Shown in pieces: positions 56,563-64,000 of a stretch of 64,000 nucleotides of DNA (its first letter is position 1; each line of letters starts with the position of its first letter). The stretch spans positions 39,856 to 103,855 of the IMG/VR virus record IMGVR_UViG_3300033148_007227; one strand, 5' to 3'. This DNA is from a virus. The translations under genes were made by a program, and so were the position numbers. The notes beneath the pieces were generated by a model. It was not told the origin of the DNA, did not search any database, and was given only the letters and a program-made list of their open reading frames with translations.

Positions 56563-57201
56563 ATGAAAAAAGAATTAATGCTGATGAATGCAGCGCGTGA
56601 GGGACTTATTGAGATAGTAAAAAATCTACTCGATACAGGAGCGAATATACATGCTTGGAATGATTATGCTCTCCGCTGGGCGGCTGAAAATGGGCAGGTG
56701 GAAGTGGTAAAACTTTTGCTCGATGCTGGAGCAGATATACATGCTGGTGATGATTGTGCTCTCCGCTATGCGGCTGGAGAAGGTCATGCGGAGGTGGTGG
56801 AAATCCTGCTCGATGCCGGAGCGGACATACATGCTAGTGATGATTGTGCTTTTCGATGGGCGGCTGAAGAAGGTCATGCGGAGGTGGTGAAAATTCTCCT
56901 TTATGCCGGGGCGAATATACATGCTCGTGATGATTGTGCTCTGCGATGGGTGGCTAGAAAAGGTCATGCGGATGTGATGAAACTCCTGCTGGATACAGGA
57001 GCGAATATACATGCTTATAATGATTATGCTCTCCAGTGGGCGGCTAAAAACGGCCACACGGAAGTAGTGAAAATCCTGCTCGAAGCCGGAGCAAATATCT
57101 ATGCCGATAACAATTACGCTCTTCACTGTGCAACTAAAAACGGCCACACGGAAGTGGTAGAAATCCTACAGCAGGCTGAATCGGAAAGGAGAGAAAAATG
57201 A
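56563..57201 (+). CDS. ankyrin repeat protein 1 (212 aa, 7 units)
   Basis: ATG 56563 after AAAGGAG; 30-aa ankyrin units. Confidence 0.92.
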   Translation: MKKELMLMNAAREGLIEIVKNLLDTGANIHAWNDYALRWAAENGQVEVVKLLLDAGADIHAGDDCALRYAAGEGHAEVVEILLDAGADIHASDDCAFRWAAEEGHAEVVKILLYAGANIHARDDCALRWVARKGHADVMKLLLDTGANIHAYNDYALQWAAKNGHTEVVKILLEAGANIYADNNYALHCATKNGHTEVVEILQQAESERREK

Positions 57202-57656
57202 CAAAAGAATCAATGTTGATAAGCGCGGCATATGAGGGGCGCATTGAAGATGTAAGGAGTTTGCTCGAAGCTGGAGCGAATATACACGCTGATGATGATT
57301 ATGCTCTCTGGTGTGCGGCTGGAAACGGTCATGCAGAGGTGGTAAAACTTTTGCTCGAAGCTGGAGCAGATATACACGCTATTGATGATTACGCTCTCCA
57401 GTGGGCGGCAAGAAATGGTCATGCAGAAGTAGTAAAAATTTTGCTTGATGCTGGCGCAAATATACACGCTATAGATGATTACGCTCTCCGTAGTGCGGCT
57501 GAAGAAGGTTACGTGAGTGTGGTGAAAATCCTGCTTGATGCAGGCGCAGATGTACATGCTGAAAACAATTGGGCTCTCCGCTGGGCAACCAAATGTGGTC
57601 ATACGAGGGTAGTGGAAATTTTACAGCAAGCTGAATCGGAAAGGAGAGAAAAATGA
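57198..57656 (+). CDS. ankyrin repeat protein 2 (152 aa, 5 units)
   Basis: ATGA-coupled; MTKESMLISAA cap. Confidence 0.92.
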   Translation: MTKESMLISAAYEGRIEDVRSLLEAGANIHADDDYALWCAAGNGHAEVVKLLLEAGADIHAIDDYALQWAARNGHAEVVKILLDAGANIHAIDDYALRSAAEEGYVSVVKILLDAGADVHAENNWALRWATKCGHTRVVEILQQAESERREK

Positions 57657-58921
57657 CAAAAGAATCAATGTTGATAAGCGCGGCACGTGAGGGGCTTATC
57701 GAAACGGTAAGGAACCTGCTCGAATCGGGTACGGATGTACATGCTGAAGATGATTATGCTCTTCGGTGGGCCGCTTTCAAAGGGTATGTGGAAGTAGTGA
57801 AAATTCTCCTCGATGCAGGAGCGAATATCCATGCCGATGATGATTGCACTCTTCGCTGGGCGGTAGGAAACGGTCATGCAGAGGTGGTAAAACTTTTGCT
57901 CGATGCAGGAGCGGATATATATGCTAGAAATGGTTCTGCTCTCTGTTTAGCGGCTAAAAATGGTCACACGGAAATAGTAAAAATCCTGCTCGATGCTGGA
58001 GCGGTTATACATGCTCTTAATGATTTTGCTCTTTGTTTAGCGGCTAAAAATGGTCATGTGGAGGTAGTAAAAATCTTGCTCGATGCTGGTGCAAATATCC
58101 ATGCTAATAATGATTATGCTTTTCGTTATGCGGCACGTGAAGGTCATGCAGACATAGTAAAACTCCTCCTCGATGCTGGAGCGAATGTCCATGCTGATAA
58201 TGATTATGCTCTTCGGTGGGTGGTTGAAAATGGACATGTAGAAGTGGTGAAAATCCTGCTCGATACAGGTGTGAATATACATGCTTATAATGATACTGCT
58301 CTCCGTTGTGCGGCACGTGAAGGTCATGTAGAAGTGGTGAAAATCCTCCTTGATGCTGGTGCAAATATCCATGCTAATAATGATTACGCTCTCTGTTGGG
58401 CAGTCGAAAATGGACATGTGGAAGTAGTAAAAATTCTCCTCGATGCAGGAGCGAATATACATGCTGATGATGATTATGCTCTTCGTTGTGCGGTTGAAAA
58501 TGATTATGTAGGTATAGTAAAAATTCTCCTCGATGCAGGTGCAAATACACATGCTTGTAATGATACTGCTCTCTGTTGTGCGGCTGAAAATGGTTATACC
58601 GAAATAGTAAAACTCTTGCTCGATGCGGGAGCTAATATACATGCTGATGGTGATTGCGCTCTTTGCTATGCGGCTGAAAATGGACATGTGGAAGTAGTAA
58701 AAATCCTACTCGATACAGGAGCTAATATACACGCTGATGATGATTACGCTCTCCGATGTACGGCTAAAAATGGTCATGCGGATGTGGTGAAAGTCTTGCT
58801 CGATGCTGGTGCGGATGTCCATGCTAATGATGATTACGCTCTCCATTGGGCAATTGAAAACGATCACATGGAGGTGGTAGAAATCTTATTGGGATTTGGC
58901 GAAAGCAAATTGAATAATTGA
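57653..58921 (+). CDS. ankyrin repeat protein 3 (422 aa, 14 units)
   Basis: ATGA-coupled; longest member. Confidence 0.92.
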   Translation: MTKESMLISAAREGLIETVRNLLESGTDVHAEDDYALRWAAFKGYVEVVKILLDAGANIHADDDCTLRWAVGNGHAEVVKLLLDAGADIYARNGSALCLAAKNGHTEIVKILLDAGAVIHALNDFALCLAAKNGHVEVVKILLDAGANIHANNDYAFRYAAREGHADIVKLLLDAGANVHADNDYALRWVVENGHVEVVKILLDTGVNIHAYNDTALRCAAREGHVEVVKILLDAGANIHANNDYALCWAVENGHVEVVKILLDAGANIHADDDYALRCAVENDYVGIVKILLDAGANTHACNDTALCCAAENGYTEIVKLLLDAGANIHADGDCALCYAAENGHVEVVKILLDTGANIHADDDYALRCTAKNGHADVVKVLLDAGADVHANDDYALHWAIENDHMEVVEILLGFGESKLNN

Positions 58922-58954
58922 AAAAGGAAAAAAGGATTGAAAGGGGAGAAAAAA

Positions 58955-59161
58955 ATGAAGCGGCAATTGAAAAATTGTGATATGATCTGGGATAATTCCA
59001 AAAAGGAAGAATACTGGATTTGCCGCAGAGATTTAGGAGGATGCGGAGCTCAGGTTCCTGACTCTTTCGGCAACACTTGCCCTCACTGTGGTCTGTGTCA
59101 CGGATGTTATCAACACCCTTGTGAGTGCCTGCCAGATGATTATCCAGCAGACCCTGATTGA
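58955..59161 (+). CDS. 68-aa Cys-rich metal-binding protein inserted in the ankyrin array
   Basis: GGGGAG RBS; C...CG...CPHCGLCHGC...CEC. Confidence 0.7.
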   Translation: MKRQLKNCDMIWDNSKKEEYWICRRDLGGCGAQVPDSFGNTCPHCGLCHGCYQHPCECLPDDYPADPD

Positions 59162-59186
59162 GTATCAACTGAGAAAGGAGAAAAAA

Positions 59187-62579: not shown

Positions 62580-62593
62580 CCAGGAAGGAAAAA

Positions 62594-63130
62594 ATGTCAA
62601 AAGAATCAATGCTGATAAGCGCGGCGCGTGAGGGGCTTGCCGAAACAGTAAAGAGCCTGCTGGATGCCGGAGCGGATATACATGCTGAAGATGATGAAGC
62701 ACTATACTGGGCCATTCGCAAAGGGTATATGGAAGTAATAAAAATCCTACTCGATGCTGGAGCGGATATACACGCTAGAGATAATTACGATTTCCGCTGG
62801 GCGGCAAGAAACGGTCATGTAGAAATAATAAAAGTTTTGCTTGAAGCCGGTGCGAATGTACACGCTTGTAATGATTTCGCTCTCCAGTGGGCGGCTGGAG
62901 AAGGTCATGCGGAGGTAGTAAAAATCCTACTCGATGCAGGTGCAGATATACATGCTGAAGATGACCATGCTCTTCGGTGGGCGGCTGGAAAGGGTCGCAC
63001 GGATGTAGTGAAACTCCTGCTCGATTCCGGGGCAGATGTACATACTAATAATGATGAAGCTCTTCGGTGGGCAATCAAAAATGGGCACAAGGAAGTAGTA
63101 AAAATTTTACAGCAAGCTGGAAAAGAATAA
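62594..63130 (+). CDS. ankyrin repeat protein 10 (178 aa, 6 units)
   Basis: Same caps and 30-aa unit. Confidence 0.92.
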   Translation: MSKESMLISAAREGLAETVKSLLDAGADIHAEDDEALYWAIRKGYMEVIKILLDAGADIHARDNYDFRWAARNGHVEIIKVLLEAGANVHACNDFALQWAAGEGHAEVVKILLDAGADIHAEDDHALRWAAGKGRTDVVKLLLDSGADVHTNNDEALRWAIKNGHKEVVKILQQAGKE

Positions 63131-63158
63131 TCAATAGTCAGGAAGGAAAGAAGAAAAA

Positions 63159-63530
63159 ATGTCAAAAGAATCAATATTGATAAGCACAGCAATGGTAAGT
63201 GCGGCACGTGAGGGGTTTGCCGAGATAGTAAAAATTTTACTTGATGCTGGAGCTGATGTCCATATTGATGATGATTGTGCTCTTCATTGTGCGGCAGGAA
63301 ACGGACACGCAAATGTAGTAAAAATCTTGCTTGACGCGGGAGCAAACGTACACGCTCGTAATGATTATGCACTCCAATGGACGGCTAAAAATGGCCACGT
63401 GGATGTGGTAGAGATTTTAATCGAAGCTGGAGCGGATATACATGCCTGTAACGATCTTGCTCTCCGGTGGGCAATCGAAAGTGGCCACAAGGAAGTAGTA
63501 AAAATTCTACAACAAGCTGATAATCAATAA
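63159..63530 (+). CDS. ankyrin repeat protein 11 (123 aa, 4 units, 5-aa N-cap insertion)
   Basis: MSKESILISTAMVSAAREG. Confidence 0.9.
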   Translation: MSKESILISTAMVSAAREGFAEIVKILLDAGADVHIDDDCALHCAAGNGHANVVKILLDAGANVHARNDYALQWTAKNGHVDVVEILIEAGADIHACNDLALRWAIESGHKEVVKILQQADNQ

Positions 63531-63554
63531 CCAGGAAGGAAAGGAGAGAGAAAA

Positions 63555-64000
63555 ATGACAAAAGAATCAATGCTGATAAATGCGGCACGTGAGGGGTGTA
63601 CTGAAGAGGTAAAAAATCTGCTCGATGCGGGTGCGGATATACATGTTTGTAATGATTATGCTCTTCAGTGGGCGGCTGGAGAAGGTCATACGGAGGTAGT
63701 AAAAATCCTACTTGATGCAGGTGCAGATATACATGCTAACAATGATGAGGCTCTCCAGTGGGCGGCCAGAAAAGGATATGTAGAAGTGGTGAAAATCTTG
63801 CTTGATGCTGGAGCGGATATCCATGCTGAAGATGATTATGCTCTCCGTTGTGCGGCAGGAAACGGTCATGCAGAGGTGGTAAAACTTTTGCTCGATGCTG
63901 GCGCGAATATCCATGCTGGAGATAATTTTGCTCTCCGTCATGCGGCTGGAGAAAATCATGCGGAAGTGGTAAAGCTCCTGCTCGATGCGGGGGCGGATGT
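63555..64000 (+). CDS. ankyrin repeat protein 12, runs off the window end (not in ORF track)
   Basis: ATG 63555 after AAGGAG; MTKESMLINAAREG...; open to 64000. Confidence 0.9.
   Translation, partial: MTKESMLINAAREGCTEEVKNLLDAGADIHVCNDYALQWAAGEGHTEVVKILLDAGADIHANNDEALQWAARKGYVEVVKILLDAGADIHAEDDYALRCAAGNGHAEVVKLLLDAGANIHAGDNFALRHAAGENHAEVVKLLLDAGAD

What the first reader, a model, noticed from the sequence alone, without database searches (positions are those of the whole stretch)
56563..64000. Phage-encoded natural DARPin-like library: at least 12 capped ankyrin genes varying at the binding surface
Seen: every gene has a near-constant N-cap (M[ST]KESMLISAA.EG), 2-12 internal 30-aa repeats and a C-cap (AL.WA..NGH.EVV.ILQQA; gene 3 ends differently). 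Lengths step in exact 30-aa units (152/212/422; 118+5/148/178). Framework residues are nearly invariant, while about 6 positions per unit are highly variable: after IHA (W,G,S,R,Y,D,I,E,L,N,C,K,F), before AL (Y,C,W,F,T,E,H,R,S,L), the two after AL and the two after AA. There are no signal peptides or catalytic domains. Established: these positions correspond to the beta-turn and first helix that form the concave binding face of ankyrin repeats, the region randomised in engineered DARPins; ankyrin genes in phages are known (Wolbachia WO, sponge ankyphages) but usually as few copies. Inference: a diversifying repertoire of small cytoplasmic protein binders, for example against host defence sensors or host-takeover targets, i.e. 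an antibody-like anti-defence cassette.
Basis: partly seen in the sequence, partly recalled or inferred. Interest (0 to 1): 0.93.

Follow-up and report, generated by a model that had tools for sequence, protein, structure and literature searches.

The report
Tandem short-ankyrin gene family in phage
An uncultured large tailed bacteriophage gives about 9% of a 103-kb contig to at least 17 genes for small ankyrin-repeat proteins that differ mainly on their likely binding face; this is probably a set of protein binders like the ankyrin families of giant viruses, but neither fast adaptive evolution nor an anti-defence role was shown.

Summary
Window 56563-64000 carries 13 same-strand ankyrin (ANK) genes: 12 whole and one cut by the contig end. 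Four more lie elsewhere on the contig. All are built from an exact 30-residue unit with shared N- and C-caps. The contig is a tailed phage. One perfect sigma-70 promoter precedes the array, and every gene has a Shine-Dalgarno site with short or overlapping junctions.

The AlphaFold model is confident and matches DARPins (TM 0.9). The unit lacks three hairpin residues of the canonical 33. Variation sits on one face of helix 1 plus the loop residue, but 300 foreign 30-residue units show the same profile (rho 0.79).

Diversifying selection is not supported: omega is 0.52 at surface sites and 0.26 in the framework, and no site shows a significant nonsynonymous excess. Two genes are truncated and the paralogs are mosaic.

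The closest homologues (45-62%) are mostly giant-virus contigs, with a few unrelated phage contigs. Distant relatives of this phage have no ANK. I read it as a lineage-specific, recombining binder family of unknown targets. The anti-defence reading is untested.

This scan has noted similar arrays in other large phages. I found no published description.

The parts
56343..56369 (+). terminator-like hairpin followed by a T-run, closing the upstream methylase region
   Evidence: consensus scan; sequence
56478..56506 (+). perfect sigma-70 promoter (TTGACA, 17 nt, TG-n-TATAAT) 57 nt upstream of the first ANK gene
   Evidence: 12 of 12 matches plus an extended -10; one of only two perfect matches in the 103-kb contig
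56563..57201 (+). ANK gene a1, 212 aa, N-cap + 5 units + C-cap; its stop overlaps the a2 start (ATGA)
57198..57656 (+). ANK gene a2, 152 aa; ATGA overlap with a3
57653..58921 (+). ANK gene a3, 422 aa, 12 internal units, divergent C-terminal tail (LGFGESKLNN)
58955..59164 (+). small Cys-rich ORF (68 aa, CxxC-type pairs) inside the array with its own SD; no family found
59187..59735 (+). ANK gene a4, 182 aa, cut short by a frameshift near 59712-59716
59716..59822 (+). out-of-frame remnant of the a4 last loop and C-cap (ADVHAFNDFALRWAIKNGHTEVVEILQQAESERRKK)
59823..60359 (+). ANK gene a5, 178 aa (the modelled protein)
60388..60834 (+). ANK gene a6, 148 aa
60859..61395 (+). ANK gene a7, 178 aa
61417..62064 (+). 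ANK gene a8, 215 aa; one 27-residue unit; its tail reads 22 nt into a9
62043..62579 (+). ANK gene a9, 178 aa
62594..63130 (+). ANK gene a10, 178 aa; its C-cap and following junction are identical over 69 nt to those of a5
63159..63530 (+). ANK gene a11, 123 aa, irregular N-cap with a 5-residue insertion
63555..64000 (+). ANK gene a12, at least 148 aa, cut by the contig end

Best explanation
This is a lineage-specific multigene family of small cytoplasmic ankyrin-repeat scaffold proteins in a large tailed phage.

**Shown**
- At least 17 paralogs share caps and an exact 30-residue unit. Repeat number varies from 2 to 12.
- The 13-gene array is one tight operon behind a consensus sigma-70 promoter, with an SD site before every gene and overlapping or short junctions.
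- The paralogs differ mainly on the exposed face of helix 1 and the adjoining loop, which is the face ANK proteins use for binding.
- The paralogs are mosaics of one another, and two are truncated. This fits birth-and-death evolution by unequal recombination between the 90-nt units and the conserved cap/RBS junctions.

**Inferred**
- Host RNA polymerase transcribes the operon early in infection.
- Each protein binds a different host (bacterial) protein stoichiometrically, blocking or redirecting it for host takeover or counter-defence. This would parallel the ANK host-range families of poxviruses and giant viruses.
- The family came in by horizontal transfer from the viral pool of short ANK genes and then expanded in place.
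For: - **It is a phage.** Tape measure, baseplate, DNA polymerase, helicase, SbcC, RecA, NusG, ribonucleotide reductase, two methylases and a VanY-type lysin are present.
- **Size and register.** 40 Ank_2 matches in three clusters, all on the + strand. The 30-residue register is exact.
- **Fold.** pLDDT 94; TM 0.9 and about 40% identity to DARPins. Each unit has a 3-residue hairpin deletion relative to DARPins.
- **Where variation sits.** Positions 3, 6, 7, 10 and 11 follow an i, i+3, i+4, i+7, i+8 pattern on helix 1, plus loop position 30.
- **The proteins are under constraint.** Framework omega is 0.26-0.29, with many sites significantly constrained, so the proteins are maintained by selection.
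- **Expression signals.** Promoter. SD sites and gaps of -22 to +33 nt.
- **Mosaicism.** The nearest neighbours of the N-caps and C-caps disagree, and exact shared tracts reach 69 nt at junctions.
- **Decay.** One frameshift and one in-frame TAA.
- **In-place expansion.** Own units are 66% identical to each other and 51% to foreign units. The N-cap is found nowhere else. Codon use differs from the rest of the phage: Leu CTC 44% against 4%, GC3 0.34 against 0.24. Distant relatives of the phage carry no ANK.
- **No other diversification or lysogeny machinery.** No signal peptide or extra domain. No integrase, resolvase or reverse transcriptase.
Against: - No target, host or expression data exist.
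- Surface-site omega is below 1 (0.52-0.60), and no site is significantly above 1. An arms race is therefore not demonstrated.
- The variable positions are those of the whole family. They could reflect only weak constraint on exposed residues.
- The units are old (synonymous difference about 0.5 per site), and there are no near-identical recent duplicates.
- The nearest homologues are in giant viruses and a TM6 bacterium. That leaves room for eukaryotic targets.
- The contig is about half a genome by CheckV, and no reads could be laid on it.
Confidence: 0.45

Rival explanations
1. The proteins are effectors aimed at a eukaryote. The phage infects a bacterium that lives in or with protists or animals. 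The ANK proteins, released at lysis or exported by a host secretion system, manipulate the eukaryotic cell, as reported for sponge 'Ankyphage' ANKp and proposed for Wolbachia WO.
For: - The closest homologues of this 30-residue ANK type are mostly in giant-virus contigs, Cotonvirus and a TM6 (Dependentiae) MAG.
- Published functional data on a phage ANK concern eukaryotic immunity.
- The phage is AT-rich (32% GC).
Against: - There is no signal peptide; residues 3-12 fold as the cap helix. Two of the three Ankyphage ANKs carry signal peptides.
- No integrase or lysogeny gene was found, so lysogenic conversion is unlikely.
- Other carriers of this ANK type are ordinary tailed-phage contigs.
- The host and the environment are unknown.
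Confidence: 0.18
2. The proteins are packaged cargo. They are loaded into the capsid and ejected with the DNA, like T4 internal proteins, and act at the first moment of infection.
For: - The N-terminus is shared by all paralogs.
- Earlier notes from this scan suggest a capsid-targeting signal system in this genome and tagged ANK arrays in other phages. I did not test this.
Against: - The conserved N-terminus is itself the ANK N-cap helix in the model, not a detachable leader.
- It has no L/I-x-E type cleavage motif.
- A sigma-70 early-type promoter fits poorly with late head assembly.
Confidence: 0.1
3. The family is largely non-adaptive repeat proliferation. Recombination-prone 90-nt units and junctions amplified a horizontally acquired ANK gene, and most copies are drifting without distinct functions.
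For: - Two of the 17 genes are truncated.
- Surface omega lies between that of purifying selection and neutrality.
- Several genes have irregular units or caps.
Against: - Framework omega is 0.26, with many significantly constrained sites, across units whose synonymous sites are about half different.
- Intact frames, SD sites and caps are kept in 15 of the 17 genes.
- About 9% of a size-limited phage genome is a real cost.
Confidence: 0.12
4. The array is an assembly artefact, or a chimeric join of phage DNA with giant-virus DNA.
For: - Both contig ends lie inside ANK genes.
- The array has 44-47% GC against 32% for the rest.
- No reads were available to check.
Against: - The pair of ANK genes at contig position 20.5-22.1 kb is flanked on both sides by phage DNA.
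- Strand, GC-skew sign and SD type match the rest of the phage.
- The excess GC is mainly at first codon positions, from Ala, Asp, Gly and Val content.
- The longest exact repeat is 69 nt, so a collapse is unlikely.
- A promoter and a hairpin mark a natural boundary at 56343-56506.
Confidence: 0.03

Closest known systems
Tandem ANK-repeat gene expansions of giant viruses ('genomic accordion'), e.g. the 148 ANK genes at the genome periphery of Bodo saltans virus (PMC5871332), and Mimiviridae ANK families
   Same: - Directional tandem arrays of stand-alone ANK genes with variable repeat number (4-17 in BsV, 2-12 here).
- The same short 30-residue unit type, 45-62% identical, including Cotonvirus P0068.
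- Position at sequence ends.
- An arms-race interpretation has been proposed for both.
   Different: - This is a tailed bacteriophage with bacterial promoter, SD and operon syntax.
- It has 17 or more copies, not 148.
- There are no near-identical recent duplicates.
- There are no fused fragments of essential genes.
- The targets would be bacterial, if the host is an ordinary bacterium.
Designed ankyrin repeat proteins (DARPins; e.g. PDB 6moi, 6mol, 7ujj)
   Same: - N-cap, internal units and C-cap architecture.
- Consensus-like framework.
- Fold match of TM 0.9 and about 40% identity.
- Four of the six DARPin randomised positions (33, 3, 13, 14) are among the most variable here.
   Different: - The unit has 30 residues, not 33. 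DARPin positions 4-6 of the hairpin (G-x-T) are missing.
- TPLH is replaced by ALRW-type residues.
- DARPin position 2 is conserved here (Asp).
- Positions 9, 10 and 17 vary in addition.
- The proteins are natural, up to 12 internal units long, and rich in Cys and Trp on the variable face.
Phage-encoded ANK proteins: sponge 'Ankyphage' ANKp (bioRxiv 10.1101/608950) and ANK genes of Wolbachia phage WO
   Same: ANK genes carried as accessory genes by tailed phages.
   Different: - Ankyphage contigs were reported for carrying an ANK gene, and two of the three ANKs have signal peptides.
- WO ANK proteins are only about 33% identical.
- The genes here form tandem arrays of cap-sharing paralogs without signal peptides.
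Poxvirus ANK/PRANC (F-box-like) host-range proteins
   Same: A viral ANK multigene family, near genome ends, thought to bind host immune factors.
   Different: No C-terminal F-box or PRANC domain. The proteins here are much smaller. The host is prokaryotic.

Membership tests
Ankyrin repeat superfamily (Pfam Ank, Ank_2 and relatives) | Profile match above the curated cut-off | tested here: met
   Ank_2 scores 82-273 bits against a cut-off of 27.3 in every gene tested
Ankyrin repeat superfamily (Pfam Ank, Ank_2 and relatives) | Stacked helix-turn-helix-loop solenoid fold | tested here: met
   AlphaFold2 pLDDT 94.4, six helix pairs; Foldseek TM 0.84-0.91 to DARPins and natural ANK domains
Ankyrin repeat superfamily (Pfam Ank, Ank_2 and relatives) | Canonical 33-residue unit with TPLH motif and a full beta-hairpin | tested here: not met
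   The unit is exactly 30 residues. HMMER places a 3-residue gap in the hairpin of every unit, and TPLH is replaced by (Y)ALRW. It is a short variant within the superfamily
DARPin-like capped binder architecture | Dedicated N- and C-terminal capping repeats around identical-framework internal repeats | tested here: met
   Shared N-cap and C-cap in 15 of 17 genes. The caps fold as terminal helix pairs
DARPin-like capped binder architecture | Variation confined to the randomised surface positions (2, 3, 5, 13, 14, 33) | tested here: inconclusive
   Positions 33, 3, 13 and 14 are variable. Position 2 is conserved and position 5 is deleted. Positions 9, 10 and 17 also vary
Viral ANK 'genomic accordion' (poxvirus and giant-virus type) | Tandem, same-orientation paralog arrays | tested here: met
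   13 + 2 + 2 genes, all on the + strand
Viral ANK 'genomic accordion' (poxvirus and giant-virus type) | Very recent, nearly identical duplicates, youngest towards the genome ends | tested here: not met
   Longest exact repeat is 69 nt. The closest unit pairs differ at about 9% of synonymous sites, and mean pS is about 0.5
Viral ANK 'genomic accordion' (poxvirus and giant-virus type) | Position at the physical genome termini | not testable with these tools
   Arrays lie at both contig ends, but the contig is a fragment (CheckV 47%) with no end overlap
Positively selected (diversifying) binder repertoire | dN/dS above 1 at surface sites | tested here: not met
   ML omega at surface sites is 0.52, fitting better than omega = 1 (2dlnL 8.3). 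By counting it is 0.60. The best single sites (10, 14, 30) reach about 1.5 with p of 0.17 or more. Values of 1.4-2.2 appear only in the lowest-dS pairs, where picking pairs by low dS also raises framework omega about 2.5-fold
Ankyphage ANKp-type secreted phage ankyrin | N-terminal signal peptide | tested here: not met
   The N-terminus MSKESMLISAAREG has no hydrophobic core and forms the cap helix (residues 3-12) in the model. No signal-peptide predictor was available
Diversity-generating retroelement target | A reverse transcriptase and template repeat nearby | tested here: not met
   No RVT_1 match in the 103-kb contig; the contig is a fragment
ANK-type immunity-gene arrays of polymorphic toxin systems (PMC3482391; listed, not read) | Adjacent toxin or toxin-cassette genes | tested here: inconclusive
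   The neighbours tested are methylases, a lysin, a MoxR-type ATPase and a DUF2201 protein; no toxin domain was found. Not every ORF was scanned

The most novel reading that the evidence does not exclude
The array is a phage-borne, recombination-shuffled repertoire of miniature ANK binders. Its members each neutralise a different bacterial immune sensor or effector, so the cassette as a whole works as a broad anti-defence module. New specificities would arise by swapping 90-nt units between paralogs.
Probability: 0.2. Interest if true: 0.85.

Novelty: new variant of a known kind. Interest (0 to 1): 0.5.

Why it matters
- **A new accessory module for tailed phages.** If the paralogs bind distinct host proteins, large tailed phages would have a modular binder repertoire of the kind known from poxviruses and giant viruses. 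It would also be a ready source of natural inhibitors that could point to unknown bacterial defence or housekeeping targets.
- **Shared gene pool.** The 30-residue unit is shared between giant viruses of protists and several unrelated phages. This points to gene flow between viruses of eukaryotes and viruses of bacteria.
- **Protein engineering.** The unit is a compact, consensus-like and presumably very stable scaffold that may interest protein engineers.
- **Limits.** The case for selection is weak and the function is unknown, so the value is that of a lead. It is a recurring lead: this scan has noted similar arrays in other large phage genomes, which I did not check. My literature searches found no published description.

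Tried and rejected
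- **Sequencing runs.** None was listed for 54001-64000, so read support, strain variation and expression could not be examined. No RNA holder was listed.
- **The look-up of encoding contigs.** The 103,855-bp contig that also carries the phage RecA could not be fetched to extend the array.
- **Related arrays.** Searches with the N-cap DNA motif in metagenome and viral contigs returned 14 loci, all chance matches that encode no ANK.
- **Relatives of the phage.**
  - DNA polymerase, RecA and a RecA profile in IMG/VR gave only 27-35% matches.
  - TerL in cultured phages gave 30% to Virus Rctr197k.
  - Neither the three best RecA-profile matches nor Rctr197k carries ANK.
  - Array length and order could therefore not be compared among relatives.
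- **Codon-model tree search.** IQ-TREE timed out and a background run died. I used a FastTree topology with fixed-tree GY94 fits instead.
- **Apparent dN/dS above 1.** It appears among the least diverged unit pairs, but I rejected it as evidence. Picking pairs by low dS also raises framework omega about 2.5-fold.
- **DGR, lysogeny and circularity.**
  - A diversity-generating retroelement is rejected: no reverse transcriptase.
  - Lysogeny genes were not found.
  - Circular closure is not shown: the contig ends do not overlap.
- **Small Cys-rich ORF.** No Pfam hit, and Atlas scores were below 0.9.
- **Host.** It could not be inferred.

Full report
**What is there**

The window is positions 39027-103026 of a 103,026-bp IMG/VR virus contig. 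The contig is classed as linear, with CheckV completeness of 47%. It has 32% GC, a strongly positive GC skew, and nearly all genes on the + strand.

It is a tailed phage. PHROG and Pfam hits include:
- tape measure, baseplate wedge, DNA polymerase A, helicase, an SbcC-like nuclease and an exonuclease;
- RecA, a NusG-like protein, Dam and Eco57I-type methylases and a VanY-type lysin;
- a MoxR-type ATPase, DUF2201 and a ribonucleotide reductase with an intein.

Between 56563 and the contig end lie 13 ankyrin (ANK) genes on the + strand. Twelve are whole and one is cut by the end. The whole contig gives 40 Ank_2 matches in three clusters:
- this array;
- two genes at the very start of the contig, the first cut by the contig start;
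- two genes at contig position 20515-22143.

That makes at least 17 genes and about 9.6 kb, or 9% of the contig.

**Check of the observation**

- **Register.** The spacing of the GH anchor is exactly 30 residues in 59 of 60 intervals. This gives 76 units in register.
- **N-cap.** The N-cap DNA motif occurs 11 times in the window, against none expected by chance.

The irregular members are:
- a3 has a divergent tail.
- a4 (59187-59735) is frameshifted, and its proper C-cap reads in the +1 frame at 59716-59822.
- a8 has one 27-residue unit and reads 22 nt into a9.
- a11 has a 5-residue insertion in its N-cap.
- One gene outside the window has an in-frame TAA in its C-cap.
- A 68-aa Cys-rich ORF with its own Shine-Dalgarno (SD) site sits inside the array at 58955-59164.

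**Anatomy of the proteins**

HMMER aligns the proteins to DARPins and natural ankyrins with one 3-residue gap per unit, in the beta-hairpin. Canonical G4-x5-T6 is missing, and TPLH is replaced by ALRW-type residues.

An AlphaFold2 model of the 178-aa protein has pLDDT 94.4 and six helix pairs. Foldseek matches DARPins at TM 0.84-0.91 and about 40% identity.

Entropy over 68 internal units is highest at unit positions 30, 10, 3, 14, 6, 11 and 7 (1.5-2.9 bits). Most framework positions are below 0.7 bits.

In the model, helix 1 covers unit positions 3-11. The variable positions 3, 6, 7, 10 and 11 follow an i, i+3, i+4, i+7, i+8 pattern, which is one face of that helix. The conserved positions 4, 5, 8 and 9 form the buried face. 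By the DARPin alignment, positions 30, 3, 10 and 11 correspond to randomised positions 33, 3, 13 and 14.

**Is it diversifying selection?**

The evidence does not support it.
- **Pairwise counts.** Pooled over the six surface codons, pN/pS is 0.73. For the framework it is 0.28.
- **ML fit.** A GY94 fit on a fixed tree of the 68 units gives omega 0.52 for surface codons and 0.26 for the framework. Fixing surface omega at 1 is worse by 2dlnL = 8.3.
- **Per-site counts.** A parsimony counting test finds no site with a significant nonsynonymous excess. Positions 10, 14 and 30 reach about 1.5 with p of 0.17 or more. Many framework sites are significantly constrained.
- **Least diverged pairs.** Surface dN/dS is 1.4-2.2 among the least diverged unit pairs. 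Choosing pairs by low dS biases the ratio upward, and framework omega rises about 2.5-fold in the same bins.
- **Family background.** The entropy profile of this array correlates at rho 0.79 with that of 300 units from the 120 best foreign homologues. The 'hypervariable' positions are the generic variable positions of this ANK type.

The surface evolves about three times faster than the framework, at a rate near or below neutral. The caveats are short units, saturation (pS about 0.5) and recombination.

**Expression signals**

- A perfect extended sigma-70 promoter (TTGACA, 17 nt, TG-n-TATAAT) lies at 56478-56506. A terminator-like hairpin precedes it at 56343-56369.
- Only two perfect matches occur in the 103 kb, and the other is inside a gene.
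- Every ANK gene has a GGAAAGGAG-type SD site. Gaps between genes run from -22 to +33 nt, with two ATGA overlaps.
- SD-like cores precede 68% of the phage's ORFs, against 18% of random positions.

The array is thus a bacterial-style operon, probably read by host polymerase. An early role is an inference.

**How the family evolves**

- **Exact repeats.** They reach only 69 nt and cluster at the C-cap/RBS/N-cap junctions.
- **Mosaicism.** Nearest neighbours disagree between the two ends of a gene. The N-cap of a10 is closest to a9 (86%), and its C-cap is closest to a5 (96%).
- **Within and between.** Units are more alike within the phage (66%) than to foreign units (51%).
- **Codon use.** It differs from the rest of the genome: Leu CTC 44% against 4%, GC3 0.34 against 0.24. 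The high GC of the array is mostly at first codon positions, from amino-acid composition.
- **No other machinery.** No reverse transcriptase, integrase or resolvase was found.

Together with the two truncated genes, this fits one acquisition followed by unequal recombination, gene conversion and birth-and-death turnover. It does not fit a dedicated diversification machine.

**Relatives**

- **Viral contigs.** Proteins 45-62% identical occur in 16 viral contigs. All carry ANK genes, nearly all with 30-residue unit spacing. They include three GVMAG giant-virus bins and a 1-Mb contig, where such genes form arrays. L011 is a phage contig with a terminase.
- **Big protein collection.** 952 homologues were found. 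The 120 best have overwhelmingly 30-residue spacing. The named ones are from Cotonvirus japonicus and a TM6 bacterium.
- **Bacterial and archaeal genomes.** Among 185,579 species genomes, the hits are almost all of the 33-residue type. The one close exception (62%) is a phage-like contig in an Ignavibacteria MAG. The N-cap motif occurs nowhere.
- **Other phage contigs.** L012 and L013 have portal, terminase, primase and a RecE-like gene, and carry at least three small capped ANK genes of this type each. ANK is the only sequence they share with this phage.
- **Cultured phages.** The best match is Wolbachia WO ANK at 33%.
- **The phage's own kin.** They are remote: terminase 30% to the 197-kb Virus Rctr197k, and RecA 35%. 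The relatives checked have no ANK.

**Interpretation**

The safest statement is a lineage-specific, recombining multigene family of cytoplasmic ANK scaffold proteins whose members differ on the binding face.

I favour bacterial targets, meaning host takeover or counter-defence, at about 0.45. The reasons are the operon and promoter layout, the absence of secretion signals, and the absence of lysogeny genes.

The rivals are:
- eukaryote-directed effectors (0.18), supported by the giant-virus and TM6 kinship of the repeat type and by the Ankyphage precedent;
- neutral repeat proliferation (0.12);
- packaged cargo (0.10);
- artefact (0.03).

The closest known system in how it works is the ANK 'genomic accordion' of giant viruses such as Bodo saltans virus. 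This family fails that system's criterion of near-identical recent duplicates, and it sits in a tailed phage.

**Novelty**

My literature searches found no description of tandem ANK families in tailed phages. Earlier notes of this scan report similar arrays in several other large uncultured phages. I did not check those notes.

I class it as a new variant of a known kind, with interest 0.5.

Noticed in passing
window 56478-56506: Perfect extended sigma-70 promoter directly upstream of the ANK operon. It is one of only two perfect consensus matches in the 103-kb contig; the other (window 32293) is inside the SbcC-like gene.
   Followed up: partly
window 58955-59164: A 68-aa Cys-rich ORF (several CxxC-type pairs, zinc-ribbon or metallothionein-like) sits inside the ANK array with its own SD site. 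It has no Pfam family, and Atlas hits are below 0.9.
   Followed up: partly
window 59712-59822: ANK gene a4 is frameshifted. The normal last loop and C-cap are still readable in the +1 frame. This could be a pseudogene, a sequencing error or a programmed shift.
   Followed up: partly
L110:2439-3200 (contig 21439-22200): The second gene of the middle ANK pair has an in-frame TAA at the usually Trp position of its C-cap. The rest of the cap (TIENDHTEIVKILQQADNQ) follows in frame.
   Followed up: partly
L012 and L013/L019 (IMGVR_UViG_3300025771_000390, IMGVR_UViG_3300010412_000055): Unrelated tailed-phage contigs (portal, terminase, primase, RecE-like) also carry several small capped 30-residue-unit ANK genes. 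The L012 contig has one at one end, and the L013/L019 contig has them at both ends.
   Followed up: partly
L029:263-1201 and 2381-2881; protein P0068: ANK genes in a phage-like contig of an Ignavibacteria MAG carry an N-terminal domain (KIVNPAGHHGLVYKDG...GGIYFA). It looks similar to the N-terminus of a Cotonvirus ANK protein (judged by eye, not aligned), a possible module shared between a giant virus and a bacterial or phage contig.
   Followed up: no
L109:5309-7975 (contig 5309-7975): The large subunit of ribonucleotide reductase is interrupted by an intein.
   Followed up: no
   Followed up: no
window 39999-40073, 43448-43634: Three tRNA genes (Arg-TCT, Leu-TAA, Glu-TTC) decode AT-rich codons. 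The ANK genes, in contrast, prefer CTC for Leu and CGN for Arg.
   Followed up: no
L110:1230-1430 (contig about 20230-20430): The short stretch upstream of the middle ANK pair appears to encode a small CxxC...CxxC peptide. It recalls the Cys-rich ORF inside the main array.
   Followed up: no
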